The notes beneath the pieces were generated by a model. It was given only the letters and a program-made list of their open reading frames with translations, did not search any database and was not told the origin of the DNA. The position numbers and the translations under genes were made by a program. Source: a virus (lineage: Duplodnaviria > Heunggongvirae > Uroviricota > Caudoviricetes). From it: DNA of 48,195 nucleotides. The stretch lies in the IMG/VR virus record IMGVR_UViG_2519899780_000006; one strand, 5' to 3'. Positions 36,766 through 46,777 of this stretch are shown one piece after another (position 1 is the stretch's first letter; every line of letters begins with the position of its first letter).

Positions 36766-37200
36766 TTAATGCAGATAACATGTAATCGCATTCAACCTGC
36801 TTATTCCCAGTAAATGGCTTATCGTCAGGATTACCCCAACAGCAATTACCCCTGGGCCATCCATGTACTTTCCGTACTCTTCCGTTAACAACGTGAAGTA
36901 TCCCCAGCCGGGAGGTAAATCCTCAACTGAAATAATTTCCGGCTCACTAATAAAGAATCGCCAGTCGCCCATGCCAAGTGAGGGATTTTTACGGAAACGC
37001 TTTTTTCTATCTGCCAACAAGTCAGCACGAGAACACTTCGCCTCTATCAGGCATGATGCTGAATTTCTGAATCCCATAGCATCTGGCTGTTCTCCGGTAC
37101 TGGTTACAGCAACAAAGCGGTCATGAAAGCAAACCTTGAACCCGTTGCGCTTAAGGAACTTGTACGCAATCTGACAGAGTTCGCGGTGTGTTAACGCCAT
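36766..37200 (-). CDS. Hypothetical protein
   Basis: 144 aa; D...EAK pattern (DAMGF...CLIEAKCSRADL) is a weak hint of a PD-(D/E)XK nuclease-like fold. Confidence 0.45.
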   Translation of the reverse strand: MALTHRELCQIAYKFLKRNGFKVCFHDRFVAVTSTGEQPDAMGFRNSASCLIEAKCSRADLLADRKKRFRKNPSLGMGDWRFFISEPEIISVEDLPPGWGYFTLLTEEYGKYMDGPGVIAVGVILTISHLLGISRLNAITCYLH

Positions 37201-37951: not shown

Positions 37952-38634
37952 TGGTTGCCTCCTTTGCGAAGCTGGGCAGCAAAGTCAACTAACCACTCAG
38001 TCATTTCAACCTTCCCTACCAGGTCTGAACCAGGGTGCATACAGCAATCACTCTGCGCCGCTTTGAAATCCTTATACTCATATTCTTGGGCCACCAGATT
38101 TTTTGCAGCTTCTATAGCAGCATCCACCCCCTGCGCCCGGACTTCAGCCAGGAAAGCATCAGTGGTTGGCGTTTCAGGTATCTGTCTCCTCATCCGTTCT
38201 ATTGCATGATAGAACCCGAAGTCTTCCGCGAGAGATACGTCATCCATATTGTCATTGTCATCCTCAATATCCCGTGATTTTGGAATTGCAGACTTTATTC
38301 CCGCATTCTCAGCAGCCAGCGCCGCGCACTTGGCCTCAAGAGCGGCAACCACTTCCTGATGGTCTTTGTACTTAACGTATGAGCCGGAGATGTCATCACC
38401 TTCGGTGTTTAGCCATGCGTCATTGCAATTCACTGCGTAGGTTCTGATGCTCATGTTGATGCTCTCCCGCCCCTGACAGACGCCAGGCCAGTCAATAAAG
38501 TATCCGCAATGCCTACCCTCAGACGTGCGCGCAGGATAAATGCCGTTATGACCCGGCAAAATATATGCTACCCATTCATCTTGCGTTGCCTGTTCCGCCG
38601 CCTCGCGCAGTTCTTGATAGTCAATCTTGCTCAC
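37948..38634 (-). CDS. Ea22-like protein (paralogue 2)
   Basis: 228 aa; N-terminus MSKIDYQELREAAEQA; C-terminal segment QELREAAEQA repeats the N-terminal motif. Confidence 0.5.
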   Translation of the reverse strand: MSKIDYQELREAAEQATQDEWVAYILPGHNGIYPARTSEGRHCGYFIDWPGVCQGRESINMSIRTYAVNCNDAWLNTEGDDISGSYVKYKDHQEVVAALEAKCAALAAENAGIKSAIPKSRDIEDDNDNMDDVSLAEDFGFYHAIERMRRQIPETPTTDAFLAEVRAQGVDAAIEAAKNLVAQEYEYKDFKAAQSDCCMHPGSDLVGKVEMTEWLVDFAAQLRKGGNQ

Positions 38635-39115
38635 TGGTCGCCTCCTTCATAAAAATAATCCAGTGGGTCTTGTCACCCTTTCCTGTTCGTTGACCGATAA
38701 CAGGCTTTCTGTCGGTCAGTGCCAATATCTGGCGAACAGGTATTTGCGTTTCATTCCAGTTAAAAATCAGAACTCTGTATGGCCGCAACACACGAAAGGC
38801 TTCTTTAAATCCCTGCCGCAAATCATCACGCCAGGTATCTTTATTCAGCCGTCCATATTTCTTTCCCATCCAGGCGTTATCACCAACACGCTCAAGATGC
38901 GGAGGGTCGAATACAACAACCGGAAACGATGCGTCTGCAAATGGTAATGCACGAAAATCTGCTATCAGGTCAGGGCTAATTATCAGTCTTCGTCCATCAC
39001 ATAATGTGTGCTCTTCCTTTCTGATATCGCTAAATATCGCCCGGTCGTCATTCTTATCGAACCAGAACATGCGGCTGCCACAGCACATATCAAGAATGGT
39101 TGCCGGTGCACTCAC
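38621..39115 (-). CDS. Small methyltransferase-like protein (motif I then DPPH)
   Basis: 164 aa; ILDMCCGSRMF (SAM-binding-like) followed by VVFDPPH (N6A/N4C motif IV-like); too short for a typical target-recognition domain. Confidence 0.4.
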   Translation of the reverse strand: MSAPATILDMCCGSRMFWFDKNDDRAIFSDIRKEEHTLCDGRRLIISPDLIADFRALPFADASFPVVVFDPPHLERVGDNAWMGKKYGRLNKDTWRDDLRQGFKEAFRVLRPYRVLIFNWNETQIPVRQILALTDRKPVIGQRTGKGDKTHWIIFMKEATSEQD

Positions 39116-39534
39116 TGCGCTACCTCCTGAAAATTACCCTGATAAAACGACAATATGCGCTGCATAACTTCGCTCTTCCGGCACTCACGACAGATTATGT
39201 TCTGACGCCTGTCGTAGCGGCGTATTTCGCCGTCTGGTAATAGCCAGATAAGGTCCGGATCAACCACAGATGGTTTCTTCAGCTTTGCCCTTGAGAGTTT
39301 TTTGCGGGCGTTTTGCCAGTCCTTGCGCGCCTGCTCAGACGGGAATACTCCGTAACCGGAATTGTAAACATCACCACTGGCGGCCAGCTCCATGCATAAA
39401 CGACCGACAGACGCATGACTGACACCAATTTCATCCGATAACTGCCGAATCGTGCCTCGTCCGTTAAGGCGTACGAATTCCACGATCAGCCCTTTAATTT
39501 TTTCCCGCTCTTCTTGTGTAAAAACTTTTTCCAC
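39112..39534 (-). CDS. Hypothetical protein
   Basis: 140-aa ORF translationally coupled to neighbours. Confidence 0.45.
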   Translation of the reverse strand: MEKVFTQEEREKIKGLIVEFVRLNGRGTIRQLSDEIGVSHASVGRLCMELAASGDVYNSGYGVFPSEQARKDWQNARKKLSRAKLKKPSVVDPDLIWLLPDGEIRRYDRRQNIICRECRKSEVMQRILSFYQGNFQEVAQ

Positions 39535-39574: not shown

Positions 39575-40552
39575 TTACCCCCTGAAGCCCGGCGGAATTT
39601 CAGTGTCCGGTTCAGAAATGTGATTCACGCAACGCTGCGCAGGCGAACGCCCCAGGCGGATAACCAGTTCATCCCATTTTTCCCGGAGTTTTGCCGGACT
39701 CATGATGTTTTTTACCCAGAACGAATCCCGCTGGAGACGCCCAAACATTTCACAAATTTGTCTGTGAGTTCTGCCATCCAGCATCCGCATTGTGCGAACG
39801 TCATTGGCCCATGCTGTCCAGTTGGGTTCTTTCGGTCTAGTGATCTCGCCATCATCGCTGGCCGCCTGCTCGTAAAGACTCACGATTCGTCCCCAGATCC
39901 ACTGTGCGCACACCAAATCTTCCTGACTTCCCCACTGGCGTTTTTTCGCACTGAACACAACCGCGTCAGGGTGTCGGGTTAAAAAATCCTGTTCAGCCGT
40001 CTGCGGGTCCGGTTGCGAAGCGTCCGGACAAGAAGATCTTTTATCTGACGGATCAGGTTTTAATACTGACGGATCGGGGTCAATCATCGCCCCCCTAATC
40101 GGCAGTTTTTTATCAACGGTTGATCCATCAAAATTTGACGGGTCAACCGTTGAGGGGTCAATATTTGACGGGTCAACTGTTAACGGGTCATTTTTTGCCG
40201 GGCTAATTTTTCTTTTCGGTTTATATGACTCACGCGCCGCCGCCGCAGCTGCTTCGAGTTTTTCCACATTAAGCCGATAGATATTGCTTACATTACGCCC
40301 ACCGACCTTACGCTCTTCCTTCGTCAGCCAGCCCTCTTTCGCCAGTTCTGCAATAGCCGATTTCACTGTGGATTCACTTCTTGCACCGATCTGACGCCGG
40401 ATAGTTTCAATGGCAGGCCATGACACGCCCTCGTCATTGCTGTAGTCTGCAAGACGGGCCATAACCGCCACCCTGGATAAGATCATGCCGGTGAAGGCGC
40501 ACCCTTCCCAGACAAGACCATGAAGCTTGCTGCTCATAAAACCCCCGAACAC
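39575..40552 (-). CDS. Replication initiator, O-like (winged-HTH N-terminus)
   Basis: 325 aa; HTH-like N-terminus; internal peptide repeats DPLTVDPSNIDPSTVDPSNFDGSTVD coincide with DNA iterons; follows the Cro-like and YdaT-like genes. Confidence 0.6.
   Translation of the reverse strand: MFGGFMSSKLHGLVWEGCAFTGMILSRVAVMARLADYSNDEGVSWPAIETIRRQIGARSESTVKSAIAELAKEGWLTKEERKVGGRNVSNIYRLNVEKLEAAAAAARESYKPKRKISPAKNDPLTVDPSNIDPSTVDPSNFDGSTVDKKLPIRGAMIDPDPSVLKPDPSDKRSSCPDASQPDPQTAEQDFLTRHPDAVVFSAKKRQWGSQEDLVCAQWIWGRIVSLYEQAASDDGEITRPKEPNWTAWANDVRTMRMLDGRTHRQICEMFGRLQRDSFWVKNIMSPAKLREKWDELVIRLGRSPAQRCVNHISEPDTEIPPGFRG
40046..40235. repeat. ori: Candidate replication origin: iterons plus AT-rich tract inside the initiator gene
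   Basis: About six copies of GACGG(G/A)TCA-type repeats (near 40048, 40069, 40137, 40150, 40167, 40183) followed by an A/T-rich stretch 40190-40235. Confidence 0.5.
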
Positions 40553-40559
40553 CGTGCTT

Positions 40560-40985
40560 TTAGTGCATCACCACAGCATTCCCTGCCGGGCCGCCGCGAT
40601 TCATCTGGTCATACAAAACAACCGCTGACGCAACAAAATCATCGACATCCTTCACCAGCCGATCCCTCCGTTCGACGATCTCACGGTAATATTCAGAACT
40701 GTGGCTGCGCATACGGGCCACCAGCAAAGGCGGCATCGCCTTTTCGATCGCCGGTAACAGAGCCTGCATTTTTTCAACAGCATCAGGGGTGTCTTTATCC
40801 AGCCAACGGAAAATTTTCTGGGTATTACGGGCCAGGGCTTCCGGATGGCTGTCGTCATACAGTTCCGGGAACGTCATTCCCAGCTCGAAATACGCTTTGG
40901 TAATTTTCGCAGCCGGTACTTTTTCGCCGTCCGGATGCGCCCAGGCATTCATTGCCATGCGGATGTGTTCATGCTTGATTTTCAT
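40560..40985 (-). CDS. YdaT-like protein in the CII position
   Basis: 141 aa, MKIKHEHIRMAMNAWAHPDGEKVPAAKITKAYFELGMTF; resembles Rac YdaT as I recall it. Confidence 0.5.
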   Translation of the reverse strand: MKIKHEHIRMAMNAWAHPDGEKVPAAKITKAYFELGMTFPELYDDSHPEALARNTQKIFRWLDKDTPDAVEKMQALLPAIEKAMPPLLVARMRSHSSEYYREIVERRDRLVKDVDDFVASAVVLYDQMNRGGPAGNAVVMH

Positions 40986-41244
40986 GAATCACCCCCGCCT
41001 CTGGTTGTGTGTTAGCCTGATACTCGACAGGTAAGCCGTCGGTTGGGTTGGGATAAGTACTGCCATCAATCTCGTGCGGAGTTACTATCCAGCCTGTTGC
41101 TTCGCACCAGCGTAAAATTTTTTTCCCCGTAAGTTTCGCCCGTCCGGTAATGACATGGCTTACCATCCCTTGGGTTACCCCAACAATTTCAGCAAAATGC
41201 TTCTGAGTTATACCGGAATGATGCAAATATTCTCCAAGATTCAT
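40969..41244 (-). CDS. Cro-like HTH regulator (YdaS-like)
   Basis: 91 aa; HTH ITQKHFAEIVGVTQGMVSHVI; divergent from the repressor gene. Confidence 0.6.
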   Translation of the reverse strand: MNLGEYLHHSGITQKHFAEIVGVTQGMVSHVITGRAKLTGKKILRWCEATGWIVTPHEIDGSTYPNPTDGLPVEYQANTQPEAGVIHENQA

Positions 41245-41351
41245 TGTTCACCTCATGTGATGTCATCACGATCATTAATAGCATTGTTATTTTTAAAAGT
41301 AAATAGCATCACTATTTCAAAGAGATTAATAATCTTATTAGAATTGAAGGT
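41245..41351. promoter_or_regulatory. Divergent promoter/operator region of the immunity switch
   Basis: 107-bp AT-rich gap between divergent HTH genes; repeated AATAGCAT half-site-like motifs. Confidence 0.4.
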
Positions 41352-41852
41352 ATGAAAAGAAAATCCCTGTCAGAGATCGACCTGCAAGCCGCCCAGAGAC
41401 TGAAAGAAATCTGGACGGCGAAAAAAAATCAACTAGGGTTAACCCAAGAGCGTGCGGCAGAAATTCTGGGATTTTCGACACAGGGAGCTGTAAGCCATTA
41501 TCTAAATGGTCAGACACCTTTAAATCTTGAGGCTGTTATCAAGTTCGCAGGGTTGCTGCAAGTTCCTCCCGAGTCAATCAGACCAGATATGGCCGAGTTG
41601 TTACAAATTGTAAGGATGTATCCCCAAGAATCTGGGGAGGACAATGTTGTCACTATATCTGCAGATATGGAACAATCGGAAAACGAACTTCCGTTTAATA
41701 TAGACCCCATGGAGCGGGATTTGCTCCAGACGTTCAGGGCTTTCCCCAAAGAAGATAAAGAGAAAATGCTTAAGGAAATGAAGGAGAAAAAAGAATCAAT
41801 TGAAGAAATCGTTGCGCGATGGCTAGCTGCGCAAAAGGGTCGTCGCGCCTAA
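41352..41852 (+). CDS. HTH repressor in the CI position (PaaR2/RacR-like)
   Basis: 166 aa; HTH LTQERAAEILGFSTQGAVSHYLNG; no obvious S24 peptidase domain; first gene of a three-gene operon. Confidence 0.6.
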   Translation: MKRKSLSEIDLQAAQRLKEIWTAKKNQLGLTQERAAEILGFSTQGAVSHYLNGQTPLNLEAVIKFAGLLQVPPESIRPDMAELLQIVRMYPQESGEDNVVTISADMEQSENELPFNIDPMERDLLQTFRAFPKEDKEKMLKEMKEKKESIEEIVARWLAAQKGRRA

Positions 41853-41869: not shown

Positions 41870-42061
41870 ATGAGTACAGCCCTTTCCCCGATAATTTCTG
41901 AATTTGAAACAGTCGAACAAGAAAACAGCTATAACGAATGGTTGCGAACCAAAGTGGCAGCAAGCCTCTCAGATCCCCGTCCTGCAATTCCACATGACGA
42001 AGTAATGGCTGAAATGGAAAACCTTATTGCTCAATTAGCTGCAACGAACAGGAGTGAGTAA
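41870..42061 (+). CDS. Antitoxin, PaaA2-like
   Basis: 63 aa acidic protein immediately upstream of and overlapping the ParE-like toxin gene. Confidence 0.65.
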   Translation: MSTALSPIISEFETVEQENSYNEWLRTKVAASLSDPRPAIPHDEVMAEMENLIAQLAATNRSE

Positions 42062-42351
42062 TGCTGCCCATTTTATGGCTACCTTCTGCACGTGATGATT
42101 TACGTCAGATCGTAGCCTATATTGCTAAGGAAAACCCTCCCGCTGCACGTAGACTAAAAATACGCATTGAAACATCAGTTTTGTCACTTACTGAACACCC
42201 TTATCTGTACCCACCGAGCGAAAGAGTTCCAAGTCTTCGTGAGATAGTGACTCATCCTAACTACATAATACTTTACCGAGTAACAGCATCTAACATCGAG
42301 ATCGTAAATGTAGTTCACTCACGAAGACAGTATCCAAACAAAACCTGTTAA
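42061..42351 (+). CDS. ParE/RelE-superfamily toxin (ParE2-like)
   Basis: 96 aa; EHPYLYPPSERVPSLREIVTHPNYIILYRV matches the ParE family as recalled; ATGA-coupled to the antitoxin. Confidence 0.7.
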   Translation: MLPILWLPSARDDLRQIVAYIAKENPPAARRLKIRIETSVLSLTEHPYLYPPSERVPSLREIVTHPNYIILYRVTASNIEIVNVVHSRRQYPNKTC

Positions 42352-44338: not shown

Positions 44339-46777
44339 ATGAGCACTGATAAAGAAGAATTTGCGCTATATTGCGAAGCAAAAAATGACAAAGTCAGAAA
44401 ACGTCTGGGAATTAAAGGTGGTTTTTACTGGACTACAGCAAAAAAATTATCTGTTGCCATCTCCCGCTGCATTACCGCAATGGATGACAACGATTATGAT
44501 GAAGACGACTTTAAAAAACCCGTTCGCGTCCATTTACCCGTTGTGAATGACCTTCCACCTGAAGGCGTGTTTGATACCGAATTCTGCAACCGATACGAAA
44601 AAGGCGGGGAAGATGGCATTACAATGGTATTTATCGCGCCCTCTCCCTCCGTGCAGGAGAAACCAGCCAGTACTGACAATACCAACGTCAACGGCGAAGA
44701 CATGACGGAGATTGAGGAGAATATGCTCCTGCCGGTTTCTGGTCAGGAGCTGCCCATTCGCTGGCTTGCGCAACACAGCAGCGAAAAACCAGTAACGCAC
44801 GTTGCACGGGAAGAACTTCAGGCATTACATATAGCACGGGCGGAAGAACTGCCGGCTGTTACTGCCCTGGCCATTTCTCACAAAACAAAGCTGCTCGACC
44901 CGCTGGAGATTCGCGACCTTCACAAACTGGTACGCGACACTGACAAAGTTTTCCCTAATCCCGGTAATTCAGACCTGGGACTGATAACTGCTTTTTTCGA
45001 GGCATACCTGGACGCTGATTACACTGATCGGGGTCTGCTGACAAAAGAGTGGATGAAAGGAAATCGTGTTTCGCGTATCACCCGTACGGCTTCCGGTGCA
45101 AATGCCGGTGGCGGGAACAAAACCGATCGCAATCCGAATTTAGTACACACCTTCGATGCGCTGGATGTGGAGATTGCAGCAGCCACACTTCCGATGGATT
45201 TTAATATTTATGAAATTCCGGGCAGCGTTTATCGTCGCGCAAAAGAAATCGTCCTGAAAAAAGAAAGTCCGTTCAGGGAATGGTCCGCAGCACTTCGCGC
45301 AACCCCTGGTATCCTGGACTATTCCCGCGCAGCTATTTTTGCACTTATCCGAAGCGCCCACCCTGAGTTTTATCACTACCCGGGGCGCCTTCAGGGGTAT
45401 ATCAATGCCAACCTGACAGAAACTGATCACGAGAATCCCACAGCTGAAACGCTCATGGCTGCCCGGCATACACCGGAAAAAGATATCCTGGAAGAAATTA
45501 ACGGCGGACTGGCTGCTGAGTGCAAAACAGAAGAAGAAAAAAATGATGAAGATAACCCGCAACCATCTGGCGCAATGGCAGATGAACAGGCAACGGCTGA
45601 AACAATGGCAGCGGATACAGTTGAACATCATCAGGACCCGCAGCCGCTGGATGACAAGTCACAGGTAAAAGTTACCGCTGACGAAGTAAACAAAATTATG
45701 CAGGCAGCCAATATCAGCCAGCCTGACGCCGATAAGTTGCTTGCTGCCTCTCGCGGAGAATTTGTTGCAGGGATTAGCGCCCCGAATGATCCGAAATGGG
45801 TAAAGGGGATTGAAACCCGCGATTCTGTAAACCAGAACCAGCAAGAATCGGAACAGAACGACCAGAAAGCGGAACAAAACAGCCCAAATGCGTTACAAAA
45901 CGAGCCAGAAACGAAACAACCTGAACCAGTAGTGCAACAGGAACCGGAAAAGATCTGCACAGCCTGCGGTCAGACCGGCGGCGGCAACTGCCCTGATTGT
46001 GGCGCGGTGATGGGCGACGCAACATACCAGGAAACATTCGATGAAGAGAATCAGGTTGAAGTTCAGGAAAATGATCCGAAGGAAATGGAAGGCGCTGAAC
46101 ATCCACACAAGGAGAATGCTGGCAGCGCTCAGGATCACGCCAGCGATAGTGAAACTGGCGAGACGGCAGATCCCTTAATTACGGTGAACGGTCATCACGT
46201 TATCACATCCACCAGCAGGACGTGTGACCATCTAATGATCGACCTTGAAACCATGGGAAAAAATCCTGATGCCCCGATCATCTCAATAGGTGCAATATTT
46301 TTCGATCCGCAAACCGGAGATATGGGACCGGAATTTAGTAAGACTATCGATCTGGAAACTGCTGGCGGGGTCATTGATCGGGACACCATTAAATGGTGGC
46401 TTAAGCAATCACGCGAAGCGCAATCTGCCATTATGACCGATGAAATCCCGTTAGATGATGCACTGTTACAATTGCGGGAATTTATCGACGAAAACTCCGG
46501 TGAATTTTTTGTTCAGGTCTGGGGAAATGGAGCCAACTTCGACAACACGATTTTGCGCCGTTCATACGAACGGCAGGGGCTCCCCTGCCCGTGGCGTTAC
46601 TACAACGATCGAGATGTACGCACAATCGTTGAGCTGGGGAAAGCCATAGACTTCGATGCCAGAACGGCTATTCCATTCGAAGGTGAGCGCCATAATGCAC
46701 TTGATGACGCCCGTTACCAGGCAAAATACGTTTCAGTTATCTGGCAAAAACTGATCCCGAGTCAGGCTGATTTTTAA
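44339..46777 (+). CDS. RecE-like protein with C-terminal DEDDh 3'-5' exonuclease domain
   Basis: 812 aa; central region resembles Rac RecE N-terminal part as recalled ([31 protein letters not shown]); C-terminus has DnaQ-like motifs [29 protein letters not shown]. Confidence 0.65.

What the first reader, a model, noticed from the sequence alone, without database searches (positions are those of the whole stretch)
40046..40235. Origin-like iterons and AT-rich tract embedded in the replication initiator gene
As in lambda, where ori lies inside O, about six GACGGGTCA-type repeats occur in-frame and encode a DPxxVDPSN peptide repeat, next to an A/T-rich unwinding-type tract. No P or DnaC-like helicase loader gene is obvious downstream, so the initiator may recruit host factors directly.
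Basis: partly seen in the sequence, partly recalled or inferred. Interest (0 to 1): 0.45.

Follow-up and report, generated by a model that had tools for sequence, protein, structure and literature searches.

The report
Replication origin inside prophage initiator gene
The repeats are almost certainly the replication origin of a lambda-like E. coli prophage, embedded in its own initiator gene as in phage lambda; this arrangement is textbook, but this initiator type carries no helper gene and ends in a peptide copied from the host protein DnaT.

Summary
In gene 39575-40537 (-) six 12-bp palindromes (TTGACCCGTCAA) lie 15 bp apart at 40120-40206. Two more sites lie at 40045-40077, and A/T-rich tracts flank both sides. 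The gene encodes a lambda-O-like initiator: a winged-helix N-domain, a disordered linker encoded by the repeats, a C-domain homologous to lambda O (E 5e-26), and a 21-residue tail matching E. coli DnaT.

The constraint acts on the DNA:
- Synonymous-codon identity across nine relatives is 0.80 in the linker against 0.43 and 0.48 in the domains. The known origins of lambda and phi80 give the same signature.
- Serine codons in the repeats are almost all TCA.
- Sister initiators with other N-domains carry other repeats at the same place, often with periods of 22-23 bp.

Two refinements:
- The window has no loader, yet 51 of 80 near-identical initiators elsewhere have a DnaC-like gene next door.

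Tail type tracks loader type: 28/28 lambda-type tails have a P gene, 0/17 DnaT-type tails do.

Verdict: new member of a known kind, moderate interest.

The parts
39575..40537 (-). Replication initiator gene (320 aa), lambda-O-like; RefSeq calls it a helix-turn-helix domain-containing protein
   Evidence: ORF and PGAP start; PHROG 391 'replication initiation O-like', E 2e-115; Pfam HTH_36 at aa 30-76
40223..40537 (-). Codes for the N-terminal winged-helix DNA-binding domain (aa 1-105), the presumed iteron-binding part
   Evidence: AlphaFold2 model with pLDDT 73-90; Foldseek matches to MarR/PadR/ArsR-type winged-helix regulators
39992..40234 (.). Proposed origin: the stretch under DNA-level constraint. 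It encodes the disordered linker (aa 102-182).
   Evidence: Synonymous-codon identity 0.80 here against 0.43 (N-domain) and 0.48 (C-domain) in nine relatives. The linker is predicted disordered, pLDDT below 50 for aa 109-180.
40188..40229 (.). Its low-coordinate end overlaps the two degenerate repeats.
   Evidence: 40203-40227 is the least stable 25-mer of the gene. It is absent from SfIV-type relatives.
40120..40206 (.). Iteron array: six 12-bp imperfect palindromes (TTGACCCGTCAA) spaced 15 bp apart, with a 30-bp super-period
   Evidence: The same array occurs in SfIV, a Klebsiella phage and Edwardsiella, Erwinia and Pantoea prophages. Copy number varies in 15-bp steps among close alleles.
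40113..40153 (.). 41-bp extended dyad symmetry within the array; could form a hairpin or cruciform
   Evidence: Inverted repeat with 20-nt arms, 90% complementary. Single-strand fold z = -5.0.
40045..40077 (.). Two further initiator-type sites (GATCCGTCAG), 21 bp apart, each containing a Dam site
   Evidence: This pair is the most conserved DNA in the class.
40028..40065 (.). 3' A/T-rich, GATC-rich tract: the candidate unwinding element by homology with lambda and phi80
   Evidence: Second least stable 25-mer of the gene. The equivalent stretch is the least stable in lambda, SfIV, the Klebsiella phage and PhiR42_1. It aligns with the right end of lambda's A/T-rich region. It lies in the densest GATC cluster of the window.
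40000..40036 (.). Inverted repeat (GTCCGG ... CCGGAC) at the 3' edge of the constrained zone
   Evidence: repeat I3; synonymous identity 0.89-0.90 over aa 165-178
39647..39997 (-). Codes for the C-terminal helical domain (aa 181-297), homologous to the C-domain of lambda O and phi80 gp15
   Evidence: BLASTP 39% identity, E 5e-26 to lambda O aa 171-277; 36% identity to phi80 gp15
39578..39640 (-). Codes for the 21-residue C-terminal tail AQRCVNHISEPDTEIPPGFRG, which matches the last 21 residues of E. coli DnaT
   Evidence: NCBIfam DnaT model positions 159-179; PDB DnaT chains 2ru8, 6aep and 9zbt_D; hhalign aligns only the tail
39112..39534 (-). DUF977 / Ren-like gene directly downstream of the initiator, where lambda has P. 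Not a loader.
   Evidence: Pfam DUF977, PHROG 142

Best explanation
The region is the prophage's replication origin, built into the coding sequence of its own initiator as in lambda.

Shown:
- The gene encodes a three-part protein: a winged-helix N-domain, a disordered linker and a lambda-O-type C-domain.
- The linker's DNA (about 39992-40234) is under strong selection at the nucleotide level.
- That DNA holds an array of six 12-bp palindromes at 15-bp spacing, two more sites, and A/T-rich tracts on both flanks.
- Its position corresponds to ori-lambda and to the phi80 origin.

Inferred:
- Dimers of the N-domain bind the palindromes and build a nucleoprotein complex.
- That complex destabilises a flanking A/T-rich tract. 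The more likely one is the conserved GATC-rich tract at 40028-40065; the alternative is 40203-40227.
- Transcription from the cro/cII-like operon runs through the site, as in lambda.
- The C-domain and its DnaT-like tail then bring in the host DnaB helicase through a DnaC-type loader: host DnaC in this prophage, or a phage DnaC paralogue in relatives that carry one. This takes the place of a lambda P protein.
For: - Clustered, phased repeats occur well beyond chance.
- Synonymous-codon identity is 0.80 in aa 102-182, against 0.43 and 0.48 in the flanking domains, across nine relatives with median 58% protein identity.
- The same signature marks the experimentally known origins of lambda and phi80.
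- All six core Ser codons are TCA (p about 4e-5). TCA accounts for 7/10 Ser codons in the linker and 1/18 elsewhere in the gene.
- About 60 initiators share the C-domain. Nearly all have tandem repeats at 30-50% of gene length. Sequence and period (12, 15, 21, 22, 23, 24 bp) differ by N-domain class, and many periods are not multiples of three.
- The procedure recovers the annotated phi80 gp15 sites.
- The C-domain is homologous to lambda O. DNA at the 3' edge aligns with lambda and phi80.
- The linker is predicted disordered, so the protein tolerates DNA-imposed sequence.
- For host recruitment: the tail matches DnaT. Lambda-type tails have an adjacent P gene in 28/28 loci. GFRG tails have P in 0/17, a DnaC-like gene in 2/17 and nothing adjacent in 15/17.
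- Phage SfIV, isolated as a phage, has no loader or helicase gene.
Against: - No binding, unwinding or replication data exist for this class. None were found in the held literature.
- The two A/T tracts are only 67-68% A+T, and which one melts is unknown.
- The 15-bp spacing puts half-site centres 7-8 bp apart, which is unusual for winged-helix dimers.
- High synonymous identity could in principle reflect recent exchange of the linker segment rather than selection.
- The partner of the DnaT tail is not known even for DnaT itself.
- The tail-loader association is a correlation across loci that are not phylogenetically independent.
- This particular prophage may be defective.
Confidence: 0.8

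Rival explanations
1. The repeats are only a low-complexity, slippage-prone peptide linker (DPSxx repeats) and have no function as DNA.
For: - The repeat is in frame and encodes a 5-residue peptide repeat.
- Copy number varies among close alleles.
- The linker is predicted disordered.
Against: - Synonymous sites are far more conserved here than in the folded domains.
- Ser codons are fixed as TCA, which completes the palindrome.
- Sister classes have 22-23-bp repeats that cannot encode peptide repeats.
- The units are palindromes.
- The same signature marks the proven origins of lambda and phi80.
Confidence: 0.04
2. The repeats do bind the initiator but serve control rather than initiation, for example autoregulation, titration or handcuffing of the initiator, or exclusion of related phages. 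The true origin would then lie elsewhere, for example in the A/T-rich immunity region near 41260-41340.
For: - Iterons have control roles in plasmids (general knowledge).
- The 41260-41340 intergenic region is only 20-25% G+C.
Against: - No initiator-type site occurs outside the gene, apart from one chance-level match.
- 41245-41351 is the divergent repressor/cro-like promoter region.
- Position and flanking DNA are homologous to ori-lambda and the phi80 origin.
Confidence: 0.08
3. The origin is real, but this prophage is replication-defective because it lost the DnaC-like loader cassette that relatives keep. On this view the missing loader reflects decay, not a host-dependent mechanism.
For: 51 of 80 contigs with a 99-100% identical initiator carry a DnaC-like gene plus DUF1627 directly downstream.
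Against: - 29 of the 80 have the loaderless arrangement, combined with diverse DUF977 alleles (71-97% identity). It is therefore widespread, not one recent deletion.
- 15 of 17 GFRG-tailed initiators in other species have no adjacent loader.
- SfIV, isolated as a phage, has no loader in its genome.
Confidence: 0.12

Closest known systems
Phage lambda ori-lambda inside gene O
   Same: - The origin lies inside the initiator gene, between the DNA-binding N-domain and the C-domain.
- It consists of tandem sites with internal dyad symmetry plus an adjacent A/T-rich tract.
- The gene follows the cro and cII-like genes.
- The C-domain is homologous (39% identity, E 5e-26).
- DNA at the right edge of the origin aligns.
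   Different: - The N-domain is HTH_36 winged-helix, not Phage_rep_O.
- There are six 12-bp sites packed at 15-bp spacing plus two outliers, rather than four 18-bp sites spaced 20-24 bp apart.
- An extra A/T tract lies on the 5' side.
- There is no P gene.
- The C-terminal tail is DnaT-like instead of lambda's ...TDWIYGVDL.
Phage phi80 gene 15 origin (gp15 / gp14)
   Same: - Same architecture and a homologous C-domain.
- The annotated gp15 sites lie at the same relative position.
- The flanking sequence AAAAGATCTTCGTCCG is shared.
   Different: - phi80 has 21-bp iterons of a different sequence and a lambda-O-type N-domain.
- phi80 has a P-like partner (gp14) and a lambda-type tail.
Replication module of Shigella phages SfII, SfIV and SfV, coliphage mEp460 and Klebsiella prophages (PHROG 391)
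   Same: - Same protein family (56-59% identity).
- Same TGAnnnnTCA array at 15-bp spacing and the same GATCCGTCAG pair.
- Same GFRG tail and no loader.
   Different: - They lack the 5' A-rich KPKRK-coding tract.
- They have different spacer sequences and copy numbers.
- The origin is not annotated or discussed in the SfIV genome paper.
E. coli DnaT (primosomal protein I)
   Same: The last 21 residues are nearly identical (VNxxSEPDxxIPPGFRG). This explains the database name 'primosomal protein I' given to these phage proteins.
   Different: Only the tail matches. A profile comparison finds no similarity to the DnaT N-domain or to its three-helix C-domain.
Iteron plasmids (winged-helix Rep proteins with iterons and an A/T-rich unwinding element)
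   Same: A winged-helix initiator binds tandem repeats next to an A/T-rich, Dam-site-rich stretch. This is a functional analogy resting on general knowledge.
   Different: - Plasmid iterons are usually non-coding direct repeats of about 22 bp bound by monomers.
- Here the sites are palindromes inside a coding region, and the protein is not a Rep-family member.

Membership tests
Lambda-type origin embedded in an O-like initiator gene | Initiator gene sits in the early rightward operon, after the cro-like and cII-like genes and opposite the repressor | tested here: met
   Repressor-like gene 41352-41852 (+), cro-like 40969-41244 (-), cII-like/YdaT 40560-40985 (-), then the initiator
Lambda-type origin embedded in an O-like initiator gene | Four or more tandem initiator-type sites with dyad symmetry inside the gene, between the two protein domains | tested here: met
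   Six sites at 15-bp spacing plus two more, at 34-51% of gene length. The lambda sites lie at 39-48%.
Lambda-type origin embedded in an O-like initiator gene | A/T-rich, easily melted tract next to the sites on the 3' side in the sense direction | tested here: inconclusive
   A conserved 3' tract exists (40028-40065, 68% A+T, second least stable in the gene). The least stable tract is on the 5' side. Unwinding cannot be tested here.
Lambda-type origin embedded in an O-like initiator gene | DNA-level constraint on the coding sequence at the origin | tested here: met
   Synonymous identity 0.80 against 0.43-0.48. Lambda and phi80 used as controls behave the same way.
Lambda-type origin embedded in an O-like initiator gene | Initiator binds the repeats and the segment supports initiator-dependent replication | not testable with these tools
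   Needs footprinting and a mini-replicon assay
Lambda O protein family | C-terminal domain homologous to the C-domain of lambda O | tested here: met
   BLASTP E 5e-26, 39% identity over 119 residues
Lambda O protein family | N-terminal Phage_rep_O DNA-binding domain | tested here: not met
   Pfam finds HTH_36 only. There is no BLASTP similarity to the lambda or phi80 N-domains.
Lambda O protein family | Partner lambda-P-type helicase loader encoded immediately downstream | tested here: not met
   No P-like sequence in the window. Across species, 0 of 17 GFRG-tailed initiators have one, against 28 of 28 with lambda-type tails.
DnaT (primosomal protein I) | Similarity to DnaT over its N-domain and its three-helix ssDNA-binding C-domain | tested here: not met
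   phmmer and hhalign align only the last 21 residues. The NCBIfam score is 16.7 against a cutoff of 201.
DnaT (primosomal protein I) | C-terminal peptide ...SEPDxxIPPGFRG | tested here: met
   17 of the last 21 residues are identical to E. coli DnaT 159-179

The most novel reading that the evidence does not exclude
The last ~20 residues of DnaT may be a portable adaptor peptide for DnaC-type helicase loading. On this reading, a whole group of lambda-O-like phage initiators swapped their P-binding tail for this host peptide. They therefore need no loader gene, or only a DnaC paralogue. If so, the phage data point to the DnaT tail as the missing link between the restart preprimosome and DnaB-DnaC. 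A 2026 cryo-EM study leaves that link open and tentatively assigns it to the DnaT N-domain.
Probability: 0.35. Interest if true: 0.65.

Novelty: new member of a known kind. Interest (0 to 1): 0.4.

Why it matters
- It locates the probable origin of a common family of E. coli, Shigella and Klebsiella prophages. The family includes the serotype-converting phages SfII and SfIV and a prophage of the O104:H4 outbreak lineage. Databases label these initiators only 'helix-turn-helix protein' or, misleadingly, 'primosomal protein I'.
- It gives a simple, validated sequence test for origins hidden in coding DNA: a peak of synonymous-site identity.
- The link between tail type and loader type gives a testable handle on two questions. 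One is how lambda-O-like initiators choose their helicase-loading route. The other is what the conserved C-terminal peptide of DnaT does.

Tried and rejected
- A window-wide count of the 12-mer was not significant (8 found, 4.9 expected). Only the clustering test was informative.
- Foldseek on the full model returned only winged-helix hits for the N-domain and said nothing about the C-domain.
- I suspected the whole C-domain might be DnaT-like. A profile comparison aligned only the tail, so that idea was dropped.
- Tandem Repeats Finder does not detect lambda's own iterons because their spacing is irregular, so the record's annotation was used instead.
- Literature searches found nothing on this origin class, on 'initiator-solo' modules, or on the function of the DnaT tail. 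The library is incomplete, so this is not proof of absence.
- The Stx-phage 'Eru' typing paper does not treat this module in any useful detail.
- A resemblance of GATCTTTTATCTG (40035-40047) to the oriC 13-mer consensus was noted from memory. It is kept only as a lead.
- FNR-like or CRP-like readings of the palindrome were rejected because the half-site spacing is wrong.

Full report
**What the window is.** The 2.9 kb around the finding is 100% identical to chromosomes of E. coli O104:H4 and related strains, and it lies in a lambdoid prophage. The local gene order on the - strand is:
- a repressor-like HTH gene, 41352-41852 (this one on the + strand);
- a cro-like HTH gene, 40969-41244;
- a cII-like gene of the YdaT family, 40560-40985;
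- the gene that holds the finding, 39575-40537 (320 aa from the RefSeq start);
- a DUF977/Ren-like gene, then a small DNA methyltransferase, then two Ead/Ea22-like genes.

**The observation.** On the sense strand, six 12-bp imperfect palindromes related to TTGACCCGTCAA sit exactly 15 bp apart between 40206 and 40120. They carry 3, 2, 0, 1, 0 and 4 mismatches. Two further sites, CCGATCCGTCAG and CTGATCCGTCAG, lie at 40077-40066 and 40056-40045, 21 bp apart.
- Tandem Repeats Finder reports period 15 and a better-scoring period 30, so alternate units resemble each other more.
- The units are in frame and encode DPLTV-DPSNI-DPSTV-DPSNF-DGSTV.
- A window-wide count of the motif is unremarkable (8 found, 4.9 expected).
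- The clustering is not: 7 core sites fall within 170 bp, whereas 200 Markov simulations never gave more than 4.
- The A/T-rich tract is real. 40203-40227 is the least stable 25-mer of the gene. It is only moderately A/T-rich.

**The protein.**
- PHROGs places it in family 391, 'replication initiation O-like' (E 2e-115). Pfam sees only an HTH_36 domain at residues 30-76.
- An AlphaFold2 model built on 32 homologues gives a confident winged-helix domain (aa 1-105), a disordered stretch (109-180), a helical domain (181-297) and a disordered tail (298-320).
- Foldseek matches the N-domain to MarR/PadR/ArsR-type dimeric winged-helix regulators.
- The C-domain is homologous to the C-terminal domains of lambda O (39% identity, E 5e-26) and phi80 gp15 (36%). 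The N-domains are unrelated in sequence.
- The repeats are therefore encoded exactly in the disordered linker, where lambda and phi80 have their origins. Lambda's iterons are annotated at nt 349-433 of O, and phi80's gp15 sites at nt 365-441 of gene 15.

**Is the constraint on DNA or on the peptide?** Four tests point to DNA.

1. Synonymous sites. Nine class members were compared, from Escherichia, Shigella, Klebsiella, Edwardsiella, Erwinia, Mixta, Pantoea and Citrobacter, plus one uncultured Enterobacteriaceae assembly. Their median protein identity is 58%. The measure is the fraction of identical codons at identical residues.

| Region (window residues) | Synonymous-codon identity |
|---|---|
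| N-domain (1-101) | 0.43 |
| Linker (102-182) | 0.80 |
| Linker, 3' part (146-182) | 0.84 |
| C-domain (183-297) | 0.48 |
| Tail (298-320) | 0.41 |

. The same calculation on lambda O plus three relatives peaks at 0.83-1.00 over O residues 128-173. On phi80 gp15 plus three relatives it peaks over residues 119-172. Both peaks fall on the experimentally established origins. The constrained zone in the window corresponds to about 39992-40234, some 55 bp longer at the low-coordinate end than the finding.

2. Codon choice. All six Ser codons in the D-x-S cores are TCA, which completes the palindrome (p about 4e-5 under the window's codon usage). TCA accounts for 7 of 10 Ser codons in the linker and 1 of 18 elsewhere in the gene. 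Across the class the counts are 67/118 against 27/197.

3. Sister classes. I fetched 68 loci from one genome per species that encode the same C-domain. Of these, 59 initiator genes were analysed, together with the window's gene and those of three phages. They fall into about ten N-domain clusters. Nearly all carry tandem repeats at 30-50% of gene length. Sequence and period differ by N-domain class: 15 bp TGAnnnnTCA, 21-24 bp GTGAAnnnnTTCAC-type, 22 bp CCGCAGAATCGCGGAA, 23 bp CCATCAGGTCAAAATGA, 12 bp CCGCACATAAAG, and phi80's 21 bp CCGAAAACGGGAAAA. Periods of 22 and 23 bp cannot encode peptide repeats. Expansions there occur in frame-preserving triplets of units, for example 69-bp duplications in L106 and L114.

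4. Conserved architecture. All members of the 15-bp class share the same layout: a variable-copy array, a spacer, then the pair GATCCGTCAG...GATCCGTCAGATAAAA(G)ATCTTCT. Close alleles differ by whole 15-bp units, giving proteins of 320, 315, 310 and 305 aa.

**Where would the DNA open?**
It is missing from SfIV-type relatives.
- In lambda, used as a control, the least stable 25-mer of O is the known A/T-rich region just 3' of the iterons. The same holds for SfIV, the Klebsiella phage and PhiR42_1.
- In the window the 3' tract (40041-40065) ranks second. It aligns with the right end of lambda's A/T-rich region and with phi80: GATAAAAGATCTTCTTGTCCGGA against AAGAAAAGATTATTCGTCAGAG and TATTAAAAGATC-TTCGTCCGAG.
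- It also falls in the densest GATC cluster of the whole window, four sites in 100 bp. That cluster is conserved across the class.
- I therefore favour 40028-40065 as the unwinding element. The 5' tract cannot be excluded.
- The array itself has extended dyad symmetry: 20-nt arms and a single-strand fold with z = -5.0.

**The missing loader.**
- No lambda-P-like or DnaC-like gene exists anywhere in the window.
- This is not a fixed feature of the initiator. Among 80 IMG/VR contigs with a 99-100% identical protein, 51 have a DnaC/IstB-like ATPase plus a DUF1627 gene starting about 10 bp after the stop codon. The other 29 have DUF977 directly, as here, combined with diverse DUF977 alleles.
- SfIV was isolated as a phage. 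It has the same module, and no loader, helicase or primase gene is annotated or detectable in its 39.8-kb genome.

**The tail.**
- The last 21 residues, AQRCVNHISEPDTEIPPGFRG, match the last 21 of E. coli DnaT, [21 protein letters not shown].
- A profile of the C-domain family aligns to DnaT only over these 21 residues. This is a shared terminal peptide, not DnaT homology.
- Across the 59 initiator genes analysed from the genome loci, tail type and downstream loader co-vary:

| Tail type | Lambda-P gene adjacent | DnaC-like gene adjacent | Nothing adjacent |
|---|---|---|---|
| Lambda-type (W..W/G..L, as in lambda's TDWIYGVDL) | 28/28 | - | - |
| GFRG (DnaT-like) | 0/17 | 2/17 | 15/17 |
| DYRAGVxADGxF (Oxalobacteraceae) | - | 7/7 | - |

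- In the lambda-type group the P gene (Pfam PF06992) usually overlaps the initiator's stop codon.
- One allele (P0070) keeps the GFRG tail on an unrelated C-domain.
- I infer that the extreme C-terminus is the adaptor that selects the helicase-loading route, and that the DnaT-type tail works with DnaC-type loaders, whether host or phage. This is a correlation across loci that are not phylogenetically independent. The partner of the tail is not known even for DnaT.

**Comparison with what is known.** An origin made of iterons plus an A/T-rich tract inside the O gene is textbook for lambda, phi80 and their relatives. The C-domain homology makes this a true relative, not merely an analogue. It differs in four ways:
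- the N-domain family (HTH_36);
- tightly packed palindromic sites at 15-bp spacing;
- the absence of P;
- the DnaT-like tail.

I found no paper in the held library that describes this origin class. The SfIV genome paper mentions the module only by gene number. I rate it a new member of a known kind. The tail-loader association is the one observation that could lead somewhere new.

Noticed in passing
L086-L152 (59 initiator genes analysed from the 68 genome loci); window 39578-39640: The extreme C-terminal tail of lambda-O-like initiators co-varies with the downstream loader. Lambda-type tails have an adjacent P gene in 28/28 loci. DnaT-like GFRG tails have P in 0/17, a DnaC-like gene in 2/17 and nothing adjacent in 15/17. 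A DYRAGVxADGxF tail in Oxalobacteraceae has a DnaC-like gene in 7/7.
   Followed up: yes
L006-L085; L001:1910-3448: Of 80 viral contigs with a 99-100% identical initiator, 51 carry a DnaC/IstB-like ATPase plus a DUF1627 gene as a cassette between the initiator and DUF977. The other 29 lack the cassette, as the window does.
   Followed up: yes
window 40035-40125; methyltransferase gene 38621-39115: Four GATC sites in 100 bp form the densest cluster in the 48-kb window, and the cluster is conserved in all class members. DNA methyltransferase genes (Dam, MT-A70 or a small SAM-dependent type) often lie just downstream of these initiators. This suggests methylation-sensitive origin control.
   Followed up: partly
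L004:3541-3576 and equivalents in L092-L095, L103, L106, L109, L112: Sister classes with 23-bp iterons have three tandem 12-mers (ACAGAGAATACA) directly 3' of the iterons, at the least stable spot of the gene. These look like a repeated unwinding element.
   Followed up: partly
L106, L114, L086 (initiator linker regions): Recent iteron expansions occur in frame-preserving blocks. Examples are 69 bp (3 x 23) at up to 99% identity and 45 bp (3 x 15) at 95%. This shows how an origin can grow inside a reading frame.
   Followed up: partly
protein P0070: This allele has the same N-domain, the same iteron-encoded linker and the same GFRG tail, but an unrelated C-terminal domain. The tail therefore behaves as a separable module.
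   Followed up: partly
window 41870-42351: A RelB/RelE-type toxin-antitoxin pair sits immediately downstream of the repressor-like gene, inside the immunity region.
   Followed up: no
window 45836-45919: A 21-bp tandem repeat (about 4 copies, 67% matches) lies inside the 812-aa exonuclease-like ORF 44339-46777.
   Followed up: no
window 40560-40985: The gene in the cII position belongs to Pfam YdaT_toxin and to PHROG 163, 'CII-like transcriptional activator'. The two names imply very different functions.
   Followed up: no
window 36766-37200 and nearby (L002:555-1201): RefSeq marks short frameshifted or partial pseudogenes just downstream of the Ead/Ea22-like genes, so this prophage has undergone some decay.
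   Followed up: no
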